From positions 1 through 25,176 of IMG/VR virus record IMGVR_UViG_3300032038_000604: a stretch of DNA of 25,176 nt; one strand, written 5' to 3'. Shown in pieces: positions 22,221-23,976 of this stretch. Numbering within the stretch: position 1 is the stretch's first letter; every line of letters begins with the position of its first letter. The notes under the pieces are model-generated. The model searched no databases and was not told the DNA's origin. It was given only the letters and a program-made list of their open reading frames with translations. Source of the DNA: a virus. Position numbers and translations under genes: made by a program.

Positions 22221-22742
22221 GTGCGGATGGAAACAAAAAATATATGTGAAGAATTAAGCCAAAATTTTATTGATTTCTCATATGAAGCCAACTCTTGTAG
22301 AGCCTTTGCTGATGCAAGAGATGGATTAAAGCCAGGTCAAAGAGCTTGCTTATGGGAAATGTATCATAAAAAATATTTTTCTAATAAACCTCATGTAAAA
22401 AGTGCAAAAATTGCGGGTGCGGTTGCTGGTACCTGGTGGCCCCACGGAGACACTGCAATTTATGATACTTTTACAAGAATGTCTCAAAAATGGATTAATA
22501 ATATTCCTGAAGTTGACTGGCACGGAAACAATGGCTCTCAAATTATCCCAGATGCAGCTGCCGCAGCAAGATATACAGAAGCAAGACTTTCTAAAATAGT
22601 TGAAGAAGGAATGTTTCAGAATATTAATAAACAAAATGTTAATATGATAAATAATTATTCAGAAGATGAGAAATGGCCTGAAGTACTTCCTGCAATTTTT
22701 CCAAGACTTATAGTAAATGGTTGTCAAGGAATTGGTAGATAA
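22221..22742 (+). CDS. Type IIA topoisomerase DNA-breakage/reunion subunit (GyrA/ParC-like), exon 1. The standard ORF ends at a TAA that is created at the intron junction. The likely exon end is 22736.
   Basis: RDGLKPGQRACLWEM matches GyrA RDGLKPVHRR. KSAKIAGAVAGTWWPHGD matches HPHGD. YTEARL is present. FPRLIVNGCQGIG matches FPNLLVNGSSGIAVG. The ORF then stops where GyrA continues with MATNIPPHN. Confidence 0.7.
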   Translation: MRMETKNICEELSQNFIDFSYEANSCRAFADARDGLKPGQRACLWEMYHKKYFSNKPHVKSAKIAGAVAGTWWPHGDTAIYDTFTRMSQKWINNIPEVDWHGNNGSQIIPDAAAAARYTEARLSKIVEEGMFQNINKQNVNMINNYSEDEKWPEVLPAIFPRLIVNGCQGIGR

Positions 22743-23976
22743 TACTGCCTGTTAAACCTTTTCCGTCTTACCAGCGGGGTAATTATCTAAAAATTTTTTT
22801 GGACAAAATTAGATAATTGCTAACGGGGGATTCTAAATATATATAAAAGAAAAAATGAAAGATAAGCATGGGTTTCATTTTAACAAATAATATATATATG
22901 AAAATCCCGTGGGAAGGAGAAAATTGTGAATTTTAATGAAACAACTCATTCAATGAGTGGAATTTATCGTATTGTTTTTGATAATAATAAAAGCTATATT
23001 GGTTTAACTAATGATTTAAGAAGAAGAATGGTTGAACATTTAGGAAAAGATATTAGATAGCATCCTAATTTATTAATAAGCAAAGCTATTAAAAAACATT
23101 CTATTAAAAATATAGAATTATTAGAAGAAATAGAACCAAATGATAGGAGAAAATTAAAAGAACGAGAGAAATATTGGATAGCATTTTATAATACATTTAA
23201 TAATATAAATCAAGGATATAATACTACTCCGGGCGGAGATGGAGCATCAGATGGTATTTATAATGTTTCAGCAAGTGTAAATCAAGAACAATTAAATTTA
23301 ATTATTAATTTATTATTAACTTCTAATCTAACCTATGAAGAAATTATAGATAAATTAAATATTTCAATTACTCGTAATGTAATAAGAGGAATAAACACAG
23401 GAACTCATTATAAAAATCCTAAATTGAAATATCCATTACGAGAAAAAAGGTTAGAAAGATATGGTTTTGAAAATAAAACAAGTAAATTTTATAATAACGA
23501 ATCTTTATTAAAAGATATTATAAATGCTTTAAAAAATCCACAAATATCTTATGATGAAATAAGTCAACTTTATAACATATCTAAATCCAGTTTAACATTA
23601 ATAAATACAGGAAAAAAATATAAACAAGTTGACTTACAATATCCCTTAAGACCTAAAAATGCTAATCAAAAAAGATTTTTTTCTAAAGAAGAAATGCTTT
23701 ATATTAAAAAGGCTTTATAGAATAGAGAAACAATGCAATCAATCGCCTCAAAATTAAATTGCGATAGAAAAGTTATTTCTGATATTAATTCTGGTAAAAG
23801 ACAAAAACAATAGGATTGGAAATATCCATTAAATAAATAATTTTTTCAAACCTGTATCGACTATCCTCGGATCGGAGGAGTAAAACTACTATTGGTACGT
23901 AGTTTGAAATGGGTTTTGCGAATTGTAAAAATTCGTTAAGATATAGTCAGCGCTTATGGAAACATAAGAATAAGTG
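22737..23976 (+). mobile_element. Putative group I self-splicing intron of about 1.24 kb inside the topoisomerase II A-subunit gene. It carries a GIY-YIG homing endonuclease ORF.
   Basis: The GyrA-like reading frame breaks at GIG and resumes at STLANVWLPHNF (23977 onward). The join GIG|STLANVWLPHN reproduces the length and pattern of GyrA GIAVGMATNIPPHN. A U precedes the 5' junction at 22736. The intron's last base, 23976, is G, the omega-G. Non-coding flanks of about 190 nt and 136 nt surround a free-standing GIY-YIG ORF. The flanks have local pairings, e.g. gactat 23864-69 / atagtc 23943-48, and tcctc-ggatcg-gagga. The exact splice sites are uncertain by a few nt; 22740|23975 is an alternative. 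Confidence 0.5.
22926..23840 (+). CDS. GIY-YIG homing endonuclease, I-TevI-like, with NUMOD/HTH-like repeats. About 305 aa, TAG-recoded with 3 in-frame TAGs.
   Basis: RBS gggaaggag, then GTG 22926. The alternative start is ATG 22953, which gives MSGIYRIVF. Motifs: GIYRIVF...SYIGLTNDLRRRMVEH (GIY-YIG with a conserved R), and KYWIAFYNTFNNINQGYN (the E/N region). The C-terminal half has three repeated YPLR-containing helix-turn-helix-like modules: LKYPLREKR, LQYPLRPKN and DWKYPLNK. In-frame TAGs are at 23058, 23718 and 23811. There is no TAA or TGA until 23838. Confidence 0.65.

What the first reader, a model, noticed from the sequence alone, without database searches (positions are those of the whole stretch)
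22737..23976. Putative group I intron splitting the GyrA-like topoisomerase gene at its catalytic core; its GIY-YIG homing endonuclease needs TAG read-through
The GyrA-like frame stops after ...LIVNGCQGIG at the most conserved region of type IIA A-subunits (GSSGIAVGMATNIPPHN). It resumes 1.24 kb later with STLANVWLPHNF. The removable segment is bounded by a U and a G. It contains a free-standing GIY-YIG ORF with its own RBS, flanked by non-coding, pairing-rich sequence. The host gene has no TAG in 740 or more codons, but the endonuclease ORF has three. Under the standard code it would stop after about 44 residues, inside the catalytic domain. So the intron and its cargo appear adapted to the phage's alternative code. 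Homing activity would then be limited to the late phase. Alternatively, the element arrived from another recoded phage. Splicing is essential for topoisomerase function, so the RNA must be catalytically competent.
Basis: partly seen in the sequence, partly recalled or inferred. Interest (0 to 1): 0.7.

Follow-up and report, generated by a model that had tools for sequence, protein, structure and literature searches.

The report
Recoded homing-endonuclease intron in phage gyrA
The phage's GyrA-like topoisomerase gene is interrupted by a real mobile group I intron, and the intron's GIY-YIG homing endonuclease can only be made in full when the phage reads TAG as an amino acid; this is a well-supported new example of an arrangement already described in other stop-codon-recoded phages.

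Summary
The GyrA-like frame breaks after ...NGCQGIG at 22736 and resumes at 23977. The joined protein gives one continuous topoisomerase match, and intron-less alleles in related phages are collinear across the junction. The 1240-nt insert (22737-23976) is a group I intron of the phage IA type. Rfam misses it at its gathering score. However, eleven relatives from IMG/VR allow a covariation test: 97.7% of cells are paired, against 35-43% in slid controls, and 36 of 71 pairs show compensatory changes. The features supported are P1 with the U·G pair, P10, P3-P9, P7.1/P7.2 and a terminal G. The same intron sits at the same gyrA site in three other phages, and related copies sit in gyrB and nrdD.

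The GIY-YIG gene (22926-23840) lies in the P6a loop. It has three in-frame TAG codons and no other internal stop. It stays 50-71% identical to a TAG-free homologue in every segment between the TAGs. The genome uses TAG as a sense codon: 65 in the tape-measure gene, 3 in the lysin and none in eleven other genes of the + strand block. The idea that this delays homing until late infection is plausible but untested. It was already proposed for TGA-recoded Agate phages. This is a new member of a known kind.

The parts
22221..22736 (+). GyrA-like topoisomerase exon 1 (172 codons, ends ...NGCQGIG; last base U22736)
   Evidence: ORF list and translation. Pfam DNA_topoisoIV is continuous across the junction. 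Intron-less alleles are collinear.
22737..23976 (+). Group I intron, 1240 nt, of the phage IA type with P7.1/P7.2 and two extra hairpins between P3 and J3/4
   Evidence: Covariation on 12 homologous introns. Rfam sub-threshold matches. The window's 3' half (23841-23990, with 14 nt of exon 2) is 80-87% identical by blastn to IMG/VR relatives.
22730..22753 (+). P1 hairpin: exon AAU-GGU plus intron AG paired with CUGCC-GUU. U22736·G22747 is the wobble pair at the 5' splice site. The guide sequence UACUGCC is 22743-22749.
   Evidence: The U·G pair is present in 12/12 sequences. The +2 pair covaries, GC in 8 and UA in 4.
22754..22759 (+). P3 5' strand AAACCU, pairs with GGGUUU 23911-23916
   Evidence: 100% of cells paired, and 2 of 6 pairs show compensatory changes (AU/UA/CG; CG/UA).
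22763..22820 (+). Two extra hairpins between P3 and J3/4: hairpin a (22763-66 / 22774-77) and hairpin b (22779-89 / 22810-20). They are P3.1-like peripheral elements.
   Evidence: Compensatory changes in 3 of 4 pairs (hairpin a) and 8 of 11 pairs (hairpin b). P3.1 is listed as an optional group I pairing in PMC3873408.
22821..22909 (+). J3/4 UAA (22821-23); P4 CGGGG/UCCCG (22824-28 / 22905-09); P5 UUC/GAA (22831-33 / 22900-02); a long AU-rich P5a/P5b extension (about 22834-22899)
   Evidence: P4/P5 helix: 99% of cells paired and 3 pairs compensatory. The MFE fold gives the same P4-P5-P5a hairpin. The sequence resembles T4 td (UAAACGGGGAACC...AAUCCCGUG; from my memory of td).
22911..22925 (+). 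P6 5' strand GGG (22911-13) and P6a 5' strand (22917-25). This stretch contains the endonuclease Shine-Dalgarno sequence AAGGAG (22914-19). It pairs with 23851-53 and 23839-47.
   Evidence: P6: 100% paired, GC to CG in 3 sequences. P6a appears in the MFE fold. Relatives close their ORF loop with an equivalent stem.
22926..23840 (+). GIY-YIG homing endonuclease gene: 304 codons, GTG start, in-frame TAG at 23058-60, 23718-20 and 23811-13, TAA stop. It has an N-terminal catalytic domain plus three helix-turn-helix-like repeats, each ending in ...YPL(R/N).
   Evidence: Pfam GIY-YIG E 8e-9, 36.1 bits against a cut-off of 22.6. phrog_7168 homing endonuclease, E 1e-25. 51% identical over its full length to the TAG-free L151 homologue, E 1e-89. 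Identity in the segments between TAGs is 50/51/60/71%.
23839..23853 (+). P6a 3' strand (23839-47, overlaps the TAA stop) and P6 3' strand CCU (23851-53)
23857..23949 (+). Catalytic core, 3' half: P7 GACUAU (23859-64) / AUAGUC (23943-48), with bulged C23858 and the closing pair U23857-A23949; P7.1 (23865-68 / 23875-78); P7.2 (23883-89 / 23899-905); P3' (23911-16); P8 (23918-24 / 23930-36); J8/7 UAAGAU (23937-42)
   Evidence: Rfam Intron_gpI aligns AAGAUAUAGUC and P9. P7.2 has 6 of 7 pairs compensatory and P8 has 7 of 7. P7 and P7.1 are invariant. The CGACUAUCC...AGAUAUAGUC motif pair occurs in at least 120 IMG/VR contigs.
23953..23976 (+). P9 CUUAUG-GAAA-CAUAAG (23953-68), an 8-nt tail, and the terminal guanosine G23976 (3' splice site)
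   Evidence: P9 has 5 of 6 pairs compensatory. All 12 family members end in G immediately before the collinear exon 2.
23977..25176 (+). GyrA-like exon 2 (STLANVWLPHNF..., 400 codons, runs off the window). Its first four bases AGUA form P10 with UACU 22743-46.
   Evidence: Translation. P10 is 4 bp here. Across the family the mean is 3.9 contiguous bp with the intron's own exon, against 1.9 with other introns' exons.

Best explanation
Positions 22737-23976 are a mobile group I intron in the conserved NG(C/S)QGIG|(S/V)T(I/L)AN motif of a phage GyrA-like topoisomerase gene.

The intron is predicted to fold into the standard ribozyme. Its guide sequence UACUGCC pairs with the end of exon 1 (P1, with the U22736·G22747 wobble) and with the start of exon 2 (P10). 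A free guanosine bound in P7 would attack after U22736, and the terminal G23976 then defines the 3' splice site. The exons would join to give an intact GyrA mRNA. Splicing chemistry is inferred from structure, not shown.

The P6a loop carries a GIY-YIG homing endonuclease gene. Its ribosome-binding site is paired within P6/P6a. Its reading frame contains three TAG codons. Under the standard code, translation ends at codon 45, before the conserved Glu and Asn of the catalytic domain. Full-length enzyme therefore requires the TAG-as-sense decoding that this phage uses for its tape-measure and lysin genes. The inserted amino acid is probably Gln.

The full-length enzyme presumably cuts intron-less gyrA alleles of co-infecting relatives and so copies the intron into them (inferred from family membership).

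Because the replication-type genes in the same block contain no TAG, endonuclease production is probably coupled to the phase when TAG suppression is active. That would keep ribosomes from running through the intron while the early topoisomerase transcript must splice. This timing step is inference only.
For: **Exact, collinear interruption**
-.

**Ribozyme structure**
- On 12 homologous introns, 71 pairs are 97.7% paired, against 35-43% in slid controls. 36 pairs and 124 cells show compensatory change, and 0 of 500 shuffles reach this.
- P10 tracks each intron's own 3' exon.
- Rfam Intron_gpI scores 19.1 bits (E 0.0045) on the window's 3' half. It scores 44.2 bits (E 2.5e-8) at full length on the ORF-less relative L205.

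**Mobility**
- The same intron lineage sits at the same gyrA site in L153, L151 and L208, while L001-L004 lack it.
- It also sits in gyrB (L162, L205, L140) and nrdD (L021, L197, L236), always after (T/G)TGGT.

**Endonuclease**
- Pfam and PHROG matches.
- Full-length homology to TAG-free relatives.
- Identity does not drop after any TAG, and frame 0 has no other stop.

**Recoding**
- A 3075-codon ORF has 65 TAG codons.
- The lysin's GH25 domain aligns to PDB enzymes across its 3 TAGs, with Q opposite one TAG in the two best hits.
- All listed genes end in TAA or TGA.
- The endonuclease has 3 TAG among 14 Gln-type codons (TAG+CAA+CAG). The 11 other + strand genes have 0 among 111. Fisher exact P is about 0.001, calculated from the counts.

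**Published precedent for the timing model**
- Borges et al.; Gibb & Edgell 2010, cited in PMC3984707.
Against: - Rfam's curated threshold is not reached, either for the window or for its ORF-less relatives.
- P7 and P7.1 are invariant in the alignment, so they carry no covariation evidence.
- No suppressor tRNA was found in the window or in the related loci scanned. The rest of the 39.5-kb source contig could not be read.
- The amino acid at TAG is not established. At the three endonuclease sites the closest homologue has E, S and N.
- The timing model has no expression data behind it. In relative L162 a TAG also sits in the gyrB exon, so TAG is not confined to late genes in every such phage.
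- An in-frame GTG lies immediately before exon 2 (23974-76), so separate translation of the second half is not formally impossible.
Confidence: 0.85

Rival explanations
1. The intron and endonuclease are as described, but the three TAG codons have no regulatory role. Once a genome decodes TAG as sense, CAG/CAA-to-TAG and other changes drift into any gene that is not needed before suppression starts. The endonuclease has simply taken on the code of its resident genome.
For: - TAG makes up 3 of 14 Gln-type codons (TAG+CAA+CAG) in the endonuclease. The proportion is similar in the tape-measure gene (65 of 257) and the lysin (3 of 22).
- Family members in other contigs carry 0, 5 or 7 TAGs with no obvious pattern.
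- L162 has a TAG even in its gyrB exon.
- The TAG positions are not conserved between the TAG-bearing endonucleases.
Against: - Eleven + strand genes have 0 TAG among 111 CAA/CAG codons. TAG is therefore clearly counter-selected in that set, and the endonuclease escapes this although it sits inside one of those genes.
- For T4 I-TevI, delayed endonuclease translation is known to matter for splicing (Gibb & Edgell 2010, cited).
- Borges et al. found significant enrichment of recoded stops in an intron endonuclease family (p = 1.3e-3).
Confidence: 0.4
2. The endonuclease gene is a decaying pseudogene. The TAGs are real stops, only a 44-residue peptide is made, and the intron persists as an immobile self-splicing remnant.
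For: - Under the standard code the ORF ends at codon 45.
- No TAG-decoding tRNA was found in the window.
- Degenerate endonuclease genes are common in group I introns (general knowledge).
Against: - There are no TAA/TGA stops and no frameshift in the 260 codons after the first TAG. P is about 1e-10 from base composition, and 0 of 20000 shuffles are stop-free.
- Identity to L151 is 51%, 60% and 71% in the segments after TAG1, TAG2 and TAG3, against 50% before TAG1.
- The third DNA-binding repeat, which spans TAG2 and TAG3, keeps the CDRKVISDIN.G...W.YP motif.
- The genome demonstrably reads TAG as sense elsewhere.
Confidence: 0.05
3. There is no splicing. GyrA is a split gene made as two polypeptides, with a free-standing endonuclease gene between the halves, as in the split T4 topoisomerase genes or the Aeh1 nrdA split by mobE.
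For: - Exon 1 ends in a stop two codons after the break, and an in-frame GTG (23974-76) directly precedes exon 2.
- The public gene caller annotated separate fragments.
- Rfam gives no gathering-level intron call.
Against: - The flanks of the endonuclease gene form a covariation-supported group I core, with P1 and P10 tied to the exon ends.
- The GTG has no Shine-Dalgarno sequence before it (direct reading of 23960-23976).
- In relatives the triplet before exon 2 is ACG or CCG, not a start codon.
- The break falls inside one of the most conserved motifs of the domain, and the joined protein matches Pfam as one stretch.
Confidence: 0.03

Closest known systems
Group I intron endonuclease in an early gene of TGA-recoded 'Agate' phages (Borges et al., bioRxiv 10.1101/2021.08.26.457843; later Nat Microbiol 2022)
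   Same: A self-splicing group I intron sits in an early gene of a stop-codon-recoded gut phage. Its homing endonuclease carries in-frame recoded stops.
   Different: There the recoded codon is TGA (Trp); here it is TAG (probably Gln). The phage lineage and host gene differ (GyrA-like here). No intron RNA structure was analysed in the passages read from that paper; here the structure is supported by covariation.
Phage T4 td intron with I-TevI (group IA2 intron, GIY-YIG endonuclease)
   Same: - A phage IA-type core with P7.1/P7.2.
- Near-identical R and S elements (CGACUAUCC, AGAUAUAGUC) and a similar P4 (ACGGGG.../AAUCCCGU).
- A GIY-YIG gene in the P6 loop.
- The ribosome-binding site is held in RNA structure.
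- Endonuclease translation is delayed to late infection, which benefits splicing (Gibb & Edgell 2010, cited). The td sequence comparison is from my memory.
   Different: - T4 delays I-TevI through a late promoter and an RNA hairpin, not through codon reassignment.
- The host gene is td.
- This intron has no P2 between P1 and P3. Instead it has two hairpins between P3 and J3/4.
- The endonuclease's DNA-binding part here is three HTH-like repeats rather than the I-TevI zinc finger/minor-groove helix/HTH arrangement.
Intron ORFs with suppressed stop codons in crAss-like Zeta-group phages (Yutin et al. 2021, PMC7886860)
   Same: Group I introns in core replication genes of recoded gut phages, with intron ORFs that contain reassigned stop codons (PolB of OLWB01000021).
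   Different: - TGA rather than TAG in that example.
- There the host gene is recoded as well, whereas here the host gene is TAG-free.
- This window is not crAss-like. It has a 3048-aa tape-measure protein typical of a siphovirus, similar in size to the phAss-1 group.
IMG/VR relatives of the same intron lineage (L153, L151, L208 in gyrA; L162, L205, L140 in gyrB; L021, L197, L236 in nrdD)
   Same: The 3' half is 76-87% identical. The architecture, the IGS and the (T/G)TGGT 5' exon end are the same. The endonuclease family in the P6a loop is the same or homologous.
   Different: - The L153, L151 and L208 endonucleases have no TAG.
- L205, L236 and L146 lack an ORF.
- The L021 endonuclease is a different GIY-YIG type that runs into the core.

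Membership tests
Group I self-splicing intron | Precise interruption of a gene; removing the insert restores a collinear product | tested here: met
   One continuous Pfam DNA_topoisoIV match, 1-431 of 432. Intron-less alleles have no gap at the junction.
Group I self-splicing intron | P1 helix between the 5' exon end and an internal guide sequence, with a U·G wobble at the splice site | tested here: met
   U22736·G22747. U·G is present in 12/12 relatives, and the neighbouring pair covaries, GC to UA in 4.
Group I self-splicing intron | Terminal guanosine at the 3' splice site, and P10 pairing of the guide sequence with the 3' exon | tested here: met
   G23976. All 12 introns end in G. P10 is 4 bp here; the family mean is 3.9 bp with the intron's own exon, against 1.9 with others'.
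Group I self-splicing intron | Conserved core: the P4-P6 and P3-P8 domains, P7 with a bulged nucleotide (guanosine-binding site), and J8/7 | tested here: met
   P3, P4/P5, P6 and P8 show compensatory changes and are 96-100% paired. P7 (with bulged C23858) and J8/7 are invariant, so they are supported by conservation only. Rfam aligns AAGAUAUAGUC and P9.
Group I self-splicing intron | Score at or above the Rfam RF00028 gathering threshold (50 bits) | tested here: not met
   No hit on the window. 19.1 bits on the 3' half alone. The ORF-less relative L205 scores 44.2 bits, E 2.5e-8. L236, L146 and L140 are not reported for this intron. The 904-nt ORF and the unusual P3-to-P4 hairpins probably account for this.
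Group I self-splicing intron | GTP-dependent self-splicing | not testable with these tools
   Needs in vitro transcription and splicing, or RNA-seq of infected cells.
Subgroup IA (phage IA2-like) group I introns | Extra helices P7.1 and P7.2 between P7 and P3' | tested here: met
   P7.1 is 23865-78 (invariant). P7.2 is 23883-905, with 6 of 7 pairs compensatory. The same layout is seen in at least 120 phage contigs that share the R/S motif pair.
Subgroup IA (phage IA2-like) group I introns | P2 between P1 and P3 (as in T4 td and Twort introns) | tested here: not met
   P3's 5' strand follows P1 directly (22754-59). Two covarying hairpins lie between P3 and J3/4 instead. The exact subgroup is therefore left open.
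GIY-YIG homing endonuclease (PF01541; I-TevI-like) | GIY-YIG catalytic domain with GIY, YIG, Arg, Glu and Asn motifs | tested here: met
   Pfam scores 36.1 bits against a cut-off of 22.6, E 8e-9, residues 10-94. GIY 12-14, YIG 24-26, RRR 31-33, EREKYW about 80 and GYN 97-99 can be read. The Glu and Asn lie after the first TAG.
GIY-YIG homing endonuclease (PF01541; I-TevI-like) | Site-specific cleavage of the intron-less allele | not testable with these tools
   Candidate target: the L001-type allele ...GGATGTCAAGGTATTGGTAGTACAATAGCAAAT....
TAG-reassigned (code 15-like) phage genome | In-frame TAG in conserved genes that stay homologous across the TAG; TAG not used as a terminator | tested here: met
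   - Tape-measure gene: 65 TAG in 3075 codons.
- Lysin GH25 domain aligns to PDB enzymes across 3 TAG.
- RuvC-like ORF has 7 TAG.
- All 12 genes listed end in TAA or TGA.
TAG-reassigned (code 15-like) phage genome | Phage-encoded suppressor tRNA(CUA) and identity of the inserted amino acid (Gln) | tested here: inconclusive
   - No tRNA in the window. The remaining 14 kb of the source contig was not readable.
- Q is opposite lysin TAG codon 76 in PDB 1jfx and 4kru, and E in two others.
- In relative L162, a TAG replaces the Q of DYGQGF.
- TAG=Gln has been validated by proteomics in other phages (PMC9523058, listed).

The most novel reading that the evidence does not exclude
The TAG codons are kept by selection as a code-based timer. 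While the early gyrA transcript must fold and splice, ribosomes stop at codon 45 and never cross the ORF into the 3' half of the ribozyme. Once the phage switches on TAG suppression, the same transcript, or the excised intron, yields active endonuclease. Homing then happens only late, when co-infecting genomes are abundant. If this is general across this intron lineage (gyrA, gyrB, nrdD), stop-codon reassignment would be a second, independent solution to the 'better late than early' problem that T4 solves with a late promoter and an RNA hairpin.
Probability: 0.35. Interest if true: 0.55.

Novelty: new member of a known kind. Interest (0 to 1): 0.38.

Why it matters
**Annotation.** This is a clean, checkable case where two annotation hazards coincide: a self-splicing intron and a reassigned stop codon. 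Standard pipelines would report a truncated GyrA, a 44-residue orphan peptide and a second GyrA fragment.

**A natural contrast for the timing model.** The host gene has no TAG, whereas its intron cargo has three. Other copies of the same intron lineage carry endonuclease genes with no TAG. This contrast could be used to test whether recoding times homing-endonuclease expression, an idea proposed for Agate phages but not demonstrated.

**A gap in Rfam.** An abundant phage intron subclass, found in at least 119 IMG/VR contigs, falls below Rfam's group I threshold. Intron counts in phage metagenomes are therefore probably underestimates.

Tried and rejected
- **Rfam scans.** RF00028 on the whole window and on 22650-24050 gave nothing. 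Scanning the 5' half alone gave only chance-level matches to unrelated families. Ten related loci at the gathering threshold yielded only a different intron in L197.
- **BLAST against GenBank phages.** The region, and the ORF-deleted core, gave no useful relative: one exon match and two short Enterococcus phage matches. GyrA protein hits there reach 38% identity at most.
- **Alternative structures.** Three readings were rejected because the 3' strand varies while the proposed partner stays constant, or because no hairpin would remain for P8. These were (i) P3 formed by AAUUGC next to J3/4 with GCGAAUU, (ii) hairpin a's 3' strand paired with the constant CCUGUU, as the Rfam alignment of L205 suggests, and (iii) CCAGCGGGG as the partner of UCCCGUGGG. 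The accepted helices are the ones with covariation.
- **Suppressor tRNA.** None was found in the window or in six related loci. A small-ORF look-up returned only 1-2 kb contigs.
- **Promoter/terminator scan of 22100-24100.** Uninformative in this AT-rich sequence.
- **Literature search for a name for the P3-to-P4 hairpins.** It showed only that 'P3.1' exists as an optional pairing.
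Full report
**1. The observation**

The window is AT-rich (25-39% G+C). The GyrB-like gene (20298-22211) is followed by a GyrA-like ORF that starts at GTG 22221. That ORF reads ...PEVLPAIFPRLIVNGCQGIG and then AGA TAA. 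The same frame reopens at 23977 with STLANVWLPHNFKEIG... and runs off the window.

Joining 22221-22736 to 23977-25176 gives a 572-residue protein. It has a single uninterrupted Pfam DNA_topoisoIV match, profile positions 1-431 of 432, E 3.7e-111.

A scan of IMG/VR found relatives at about 60% identity. In L001, L002 and L004 the DNA reads straight through as NG[CS]QGIG[SV]TIAN.WLP, with no gap relative to the joined window sequence.

The insert is therefore exactly 22737-23976 (1240 nt). It is preceded by U22736 and ends in G23976. One correction applies: only 572 GyrA codons are in the window, not 740.

**2. The insert is a group I intron**

Rfam did not call it. There was no hit at the gathering threshold on the window and none up to E = 10 on 22650-24050. 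When the 3' non-coding part was scanned alone, so that a truncated match was allowed, RF00028 Intron_gpI matched 23836-23969. The score was 19.1 bits, E 0.0045, over model positions 168-253. The match aligned the AAGAUAUAGUC element and the P9 hairpin. The 5' part alone gave nothing meaningful.

By eye, the four classical conserved elements are present:
- ...UAACGGGGGAUUC
- ...AAAAUCCCGUGGG
- ...GUAUCGACUAUCC
- ...UAAGAUAUAGUCAG

An exact-pattern scan for CGACTATCC-N55-85-AGATATAGTC found at least 120 phage contigs, all with the same layout: a hairpin, AGUA, a hairpin, GAARYG, a hairpin, then AGAUAUAGUC. The narrower motif TGTATCGACTATCC...AGATATAGTCAG found at least 119.

Local blastn showed the window's 3' stretch (23841-23990: the 3' non-coding part of the intron plus 14 nt of exon 2) to be 76-87% identical to many of these. 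Its 5' half was recognisably homologous to about a dozen, and for L153 this included the exon end.

I cut out the ORFs and aligned twelve cores, the window plus eleven loci. I then tested a structure that I wrote down from the window sequence. The results were:
- 71 pairs in total, with 97.7% of cells forming standard pairs, against 35-43% when the 3' partners are slid by 1-3 columns.
- 36 pairs and 124 cells with changes on both sides.
- 0 of 500 shuffles reached any of the five measures.

By helix, compensatory changes were seen as follows:

| Helix | Result |
|---|---|
| P1 | +2 pair GC to UA in four sequences |
| P3 | AAACCU/GGGUUU, AUACCU/GGGUAU, ACAUCU/GGAUGU, AUAUCC/GGAUAU |
| Extra hairpin a | 3 of 4 pairs |
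| Extra hairpin b | 8 of 11 pairs |
| P4/P5 | 3 pairs |
| P6 | 1 pair |
| P7.2 | 6 of 7 pairs |
| P8 | 7 of 7 pairs |
| P9 | 5 of 6 pairs |
| P7, P7.1 | invariant, so supported by conservation only |

The U·G pair at the 5' splice site is present in 12 of 12 sequences, and all twelve introns end in G. The guide-sequence bases just 5' of those that pair with exon 1 can pair with the first bases of each intron's own exon 2 (P10). The mean is 3.9 contiguous pairs with the intron's own exon, against 1.9 with other introns' exons. In the window this is AGUA with UACU.

An ORF-less member of the lineage, L205, scores 44.2 bits (E 2.5e-8) over the whole Rfam model, just under the 50-bit threshold. 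Other ORF-less members are not reported at all. Rfam's model is therefore insensitive to this subclass.

One architectural point differs from T4 td or Twort. P3's 5' strand follows P1 directly, and two covarying hairpins sit between P3 and the UAA of J3/4. 'P3.1' is a recognised optional pairing. I leave the exact subgroup open.

**3. The intron lineage is mobile**

The same intron sits at the homologous gyrA position in:
- L153 (NGCQGIG|VTIANVWLPHN)
- L151 and L208 (NPN[RS]GIG|VA[LM]ACNWLPHN)

The closer gyrA relatives L001-L004 lack it. Related copies lie in a gyrB-like gene after LGSFGIG (L162, L205, L140/L144). Others lie in nrdD after QQFG (L021, L197, L236), and L172 and L146 carry copies in further genes. 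Every copy follows (T/G)TGGT, which is the sequence that pairs with the guide.

**4. The endonuclease gene and its TAG codons**

ORF 22926-23840 lies in the loop of P6a. It starts at a GTG 6 nt after AAGGAG. The Shine-Dalgarno sequence and the bases up to the start codon are paired with the sequence around the stop codon (22917-25 with 23839-47).

Translated with TAG as sense, it is a 304-residue protein with:
- a GIY-YIG domain at residues 10-94 (Pfam 36.1 bits, E 8e-9),
- a PHROG homing-endonuclease match (E 1e-25),
- three HTH-like repeats, each ending in ...YPL(R/N).

The first TAG is codon 45. It lies after GIY, YIG and the Arg cluster but before the EREKYW Glu and the GYN Asn. By analogy with I-TevI (my knowledge), a 44-residue product would therefore be inactive.

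The ORF is not decaying:
- Frame 0 contains no TGA and only the terminal TAA, whereas the other frames contain 28 and 44 TAA/TGA.
- None of 20000 shuffles is stop-free.
- The composition-based probability of 260 open codons is about 1e-10.
- It is 51% identical over its full length to the TAG-free endonuclease of L151 (E 1e-89) and 46% identical to that of L153.
- Identity to L151 in the four segments delimited by the TAGs is 50, 51, 60 and 71%.

Other members of this endonuclease family carry in-frame TAGs too: L162 has 7, L202 has 7 and L235 has 5.

**5. The genome reads TAG as sense**

With TAG open, the minus strand 2410-11637 becomes one 3075-codon ORF with 65 TAG and no other stop. It is a tape-measure protein with the PhageMin_Tail domain.

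The lysin (17969-19564) has three TAGs in its GH25 domain. That domain aligns to solved GH25 enzymes across them. Q lies opposite codon 76 in the two best hits (1jfx, 4kru) and E in two others. A RuvC-like ORF (1029-1538) has seven TAGs.

All genes listed end in TAA or TGA. The public gene caller for the source contig (ENA ERZ27256903 k141_2707871, 39.5 kb) also read the endonuclease (295 aa) and the tape-measure protein (3048 aa) through their TAGs.

By contrast, eleven other genes of the + strand block have 0 TAG among 111 CAA/CAG codons. These are the MVP-like gene, two small hypothetical ORFs, RNA ligase, kinase, phosphoesterase, holin, RNase H, GyrB and both GyrA exons. The endonuclease has 3 TAG among 14 Gln-type codons (TAG+CAA+CAG). 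Fisher exact P is about 0.001, calculated from those counts.

No suppressor tRNA is in the window, and I could not read the rest of the contig. In relative L162, a TAG replaces the Q of the conserved DYGQGF in GyrB. TAG=Gln has proteomic support in other gut phages (PMC9523058). Gln is therefore the likely reading, but it is not shown here.

**6. Mechanism, with shown and inferred steps separated**

- Shown from sequence and comparison: the insert is a group I ribozyme fold tied to both exon ends. It carries an intact GIY-YIG gene that is complete only under TAG=sense, in a genome that uses TAG=sense.
- Inferred from family knowledge: the intron self-splices, and the enzyme cleaves intron-less gyrA alleles and drives homing.
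- Inferred from codon distribution only: full-length enzyme appears when suppression is active, presumably late, while the TAG-free host gene is expressed earlier.

This would resemble T4 I-TevI, where delayed translation is needed for efficient splicing (Gibb & Edgell 2010, cited in PMC3984707).

A neutral alternative is that TAG simply drifts into any gene not needed before suppression. I cannot exclude this and give it about 0.4. The pseudogene and split-gene rivals are unlikely (0.05 and 0.03).

**7. Comparison with what is known, and novelty**

Borges et al. reported for TGA-recoded Agate phages that a group I intron endonuclease inserted in an early gene is preferentially recoded. [quoted passage not shown] Yutin et al. 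showed crAss Zeta-group PolB introns whose ORFs contain TGA codons that must be suppressed. The idea is therefore already published.

The new points here are:
- a TAG instance in a GyrA-like gene of a phage with no close GenBank relative;
- a covariation-backed structure for the intron;
- the finding that the lineage also occupies gyrB and nrdD sites and is under-detected by Rfam.

I file it as a new member of a known kind, interest 0.38.

Noticed in passing
window 2410-11637 (- strand): A 3048-residue tape-measure protein (PhageMin_Tail) with 65 in-frame TAG and no TGA/TAA. Under the standard code it breaks into more than 60 short ORFs. Its size matches the 3149-3209 aa tape-measure proteins of the TAG-recoded phAss-1 phage group (PMC10607447).
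   Followed up: partly
window 11800-14295 (+): An 831-residue phage protein with a major vault protein shoulder domain (PF11978, E 2.6e-20) and a weak Vault_3 repeat. It is TAG-free and sits in the most G+C-rich part of the window (35-39%). A 360-aa antisense ORF (11713-12795) overlaps it and is probably a by-product of composition.
   Followed up: partly
window 17969-19564 (+), with holin 17757-17978: The endolysin has a GH25 domain plus a CHAP domain. Its GH25 domain holds three TAG codons, so the standard-code ORF list shows only the CHAP part from ATG 18392. The holin overlaps the start of the lysin and has no TAG.
   Followed up: partly
window 1029-1538 (+) and 3-995 (+): A RuvC-like resolvase ORF with 7 in-frame TAG (Pfam RuvC, E 8.6e-5, just above the cut-off). 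Upstream is a 330-codon ORF with 5 TAG and no Pfam match.
   Followed up: partly
window 14945-17677 (+): An RNA ligase (PHA02142 OB fold plus RNA_ligase), an AAA_33/KTI12-type kinase and a metallophosphoesterase lie side by side. This looks like an RNA (tRNA) repair module. All three are TAG-free.
   Followed up: no
L162 (IMGVR_UViG_3300031555_005868), about 4300-5960: A sister intron sits in a gyrB-like gene of another recoded phage. The exon itself has a TAG at the conserved DYG(Q)GF position, and the intron's GIY-YIG gene has 7 in-frame TAG. In that phage TAG is therefore not confined to late genes.
   Followed up: partly
L021, L197, L236 (nrdD); L205, L140/L144 (gyrB); L172, L146 (other genes): The same intron lineage occupies at least four different host genes. 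It always follows (T/G)TGGT, the sequence complementary to its guide. ORF-less copies are 251-274 nt long (L236, L146, L205).
   Followed up: partly
L205 3077-3336; L236, L146, L140: Rfam RF00028 misses this abundant phage intron subclass at its gathering score. The best ORF-less member scores 44.2 bits and others are not reported, although the subclass motif occurs in at least 119 IMG/VR contigs. The subclass has two covarying hairpins between P3 and J3/4 and, in the twelve aligned members, no P2.
   Followed up: partly
window 23974-23976: The last three intron bases are an in-frame GTG directly before exon 2. In L151 and L208 the same position is an in-frame ATG, but in L153, L162 and L205 it is ACG or CCG. 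This is probably coincidence, arising from the ...(U/C)G 3' end.
   Followed up: partly
L197 4573-4857: A second, unrelated group I intron lies about 900 nt downstream of the nrdD intron in the same contig. Rfam recognises it at 68.9 bits.
   Followed up: no
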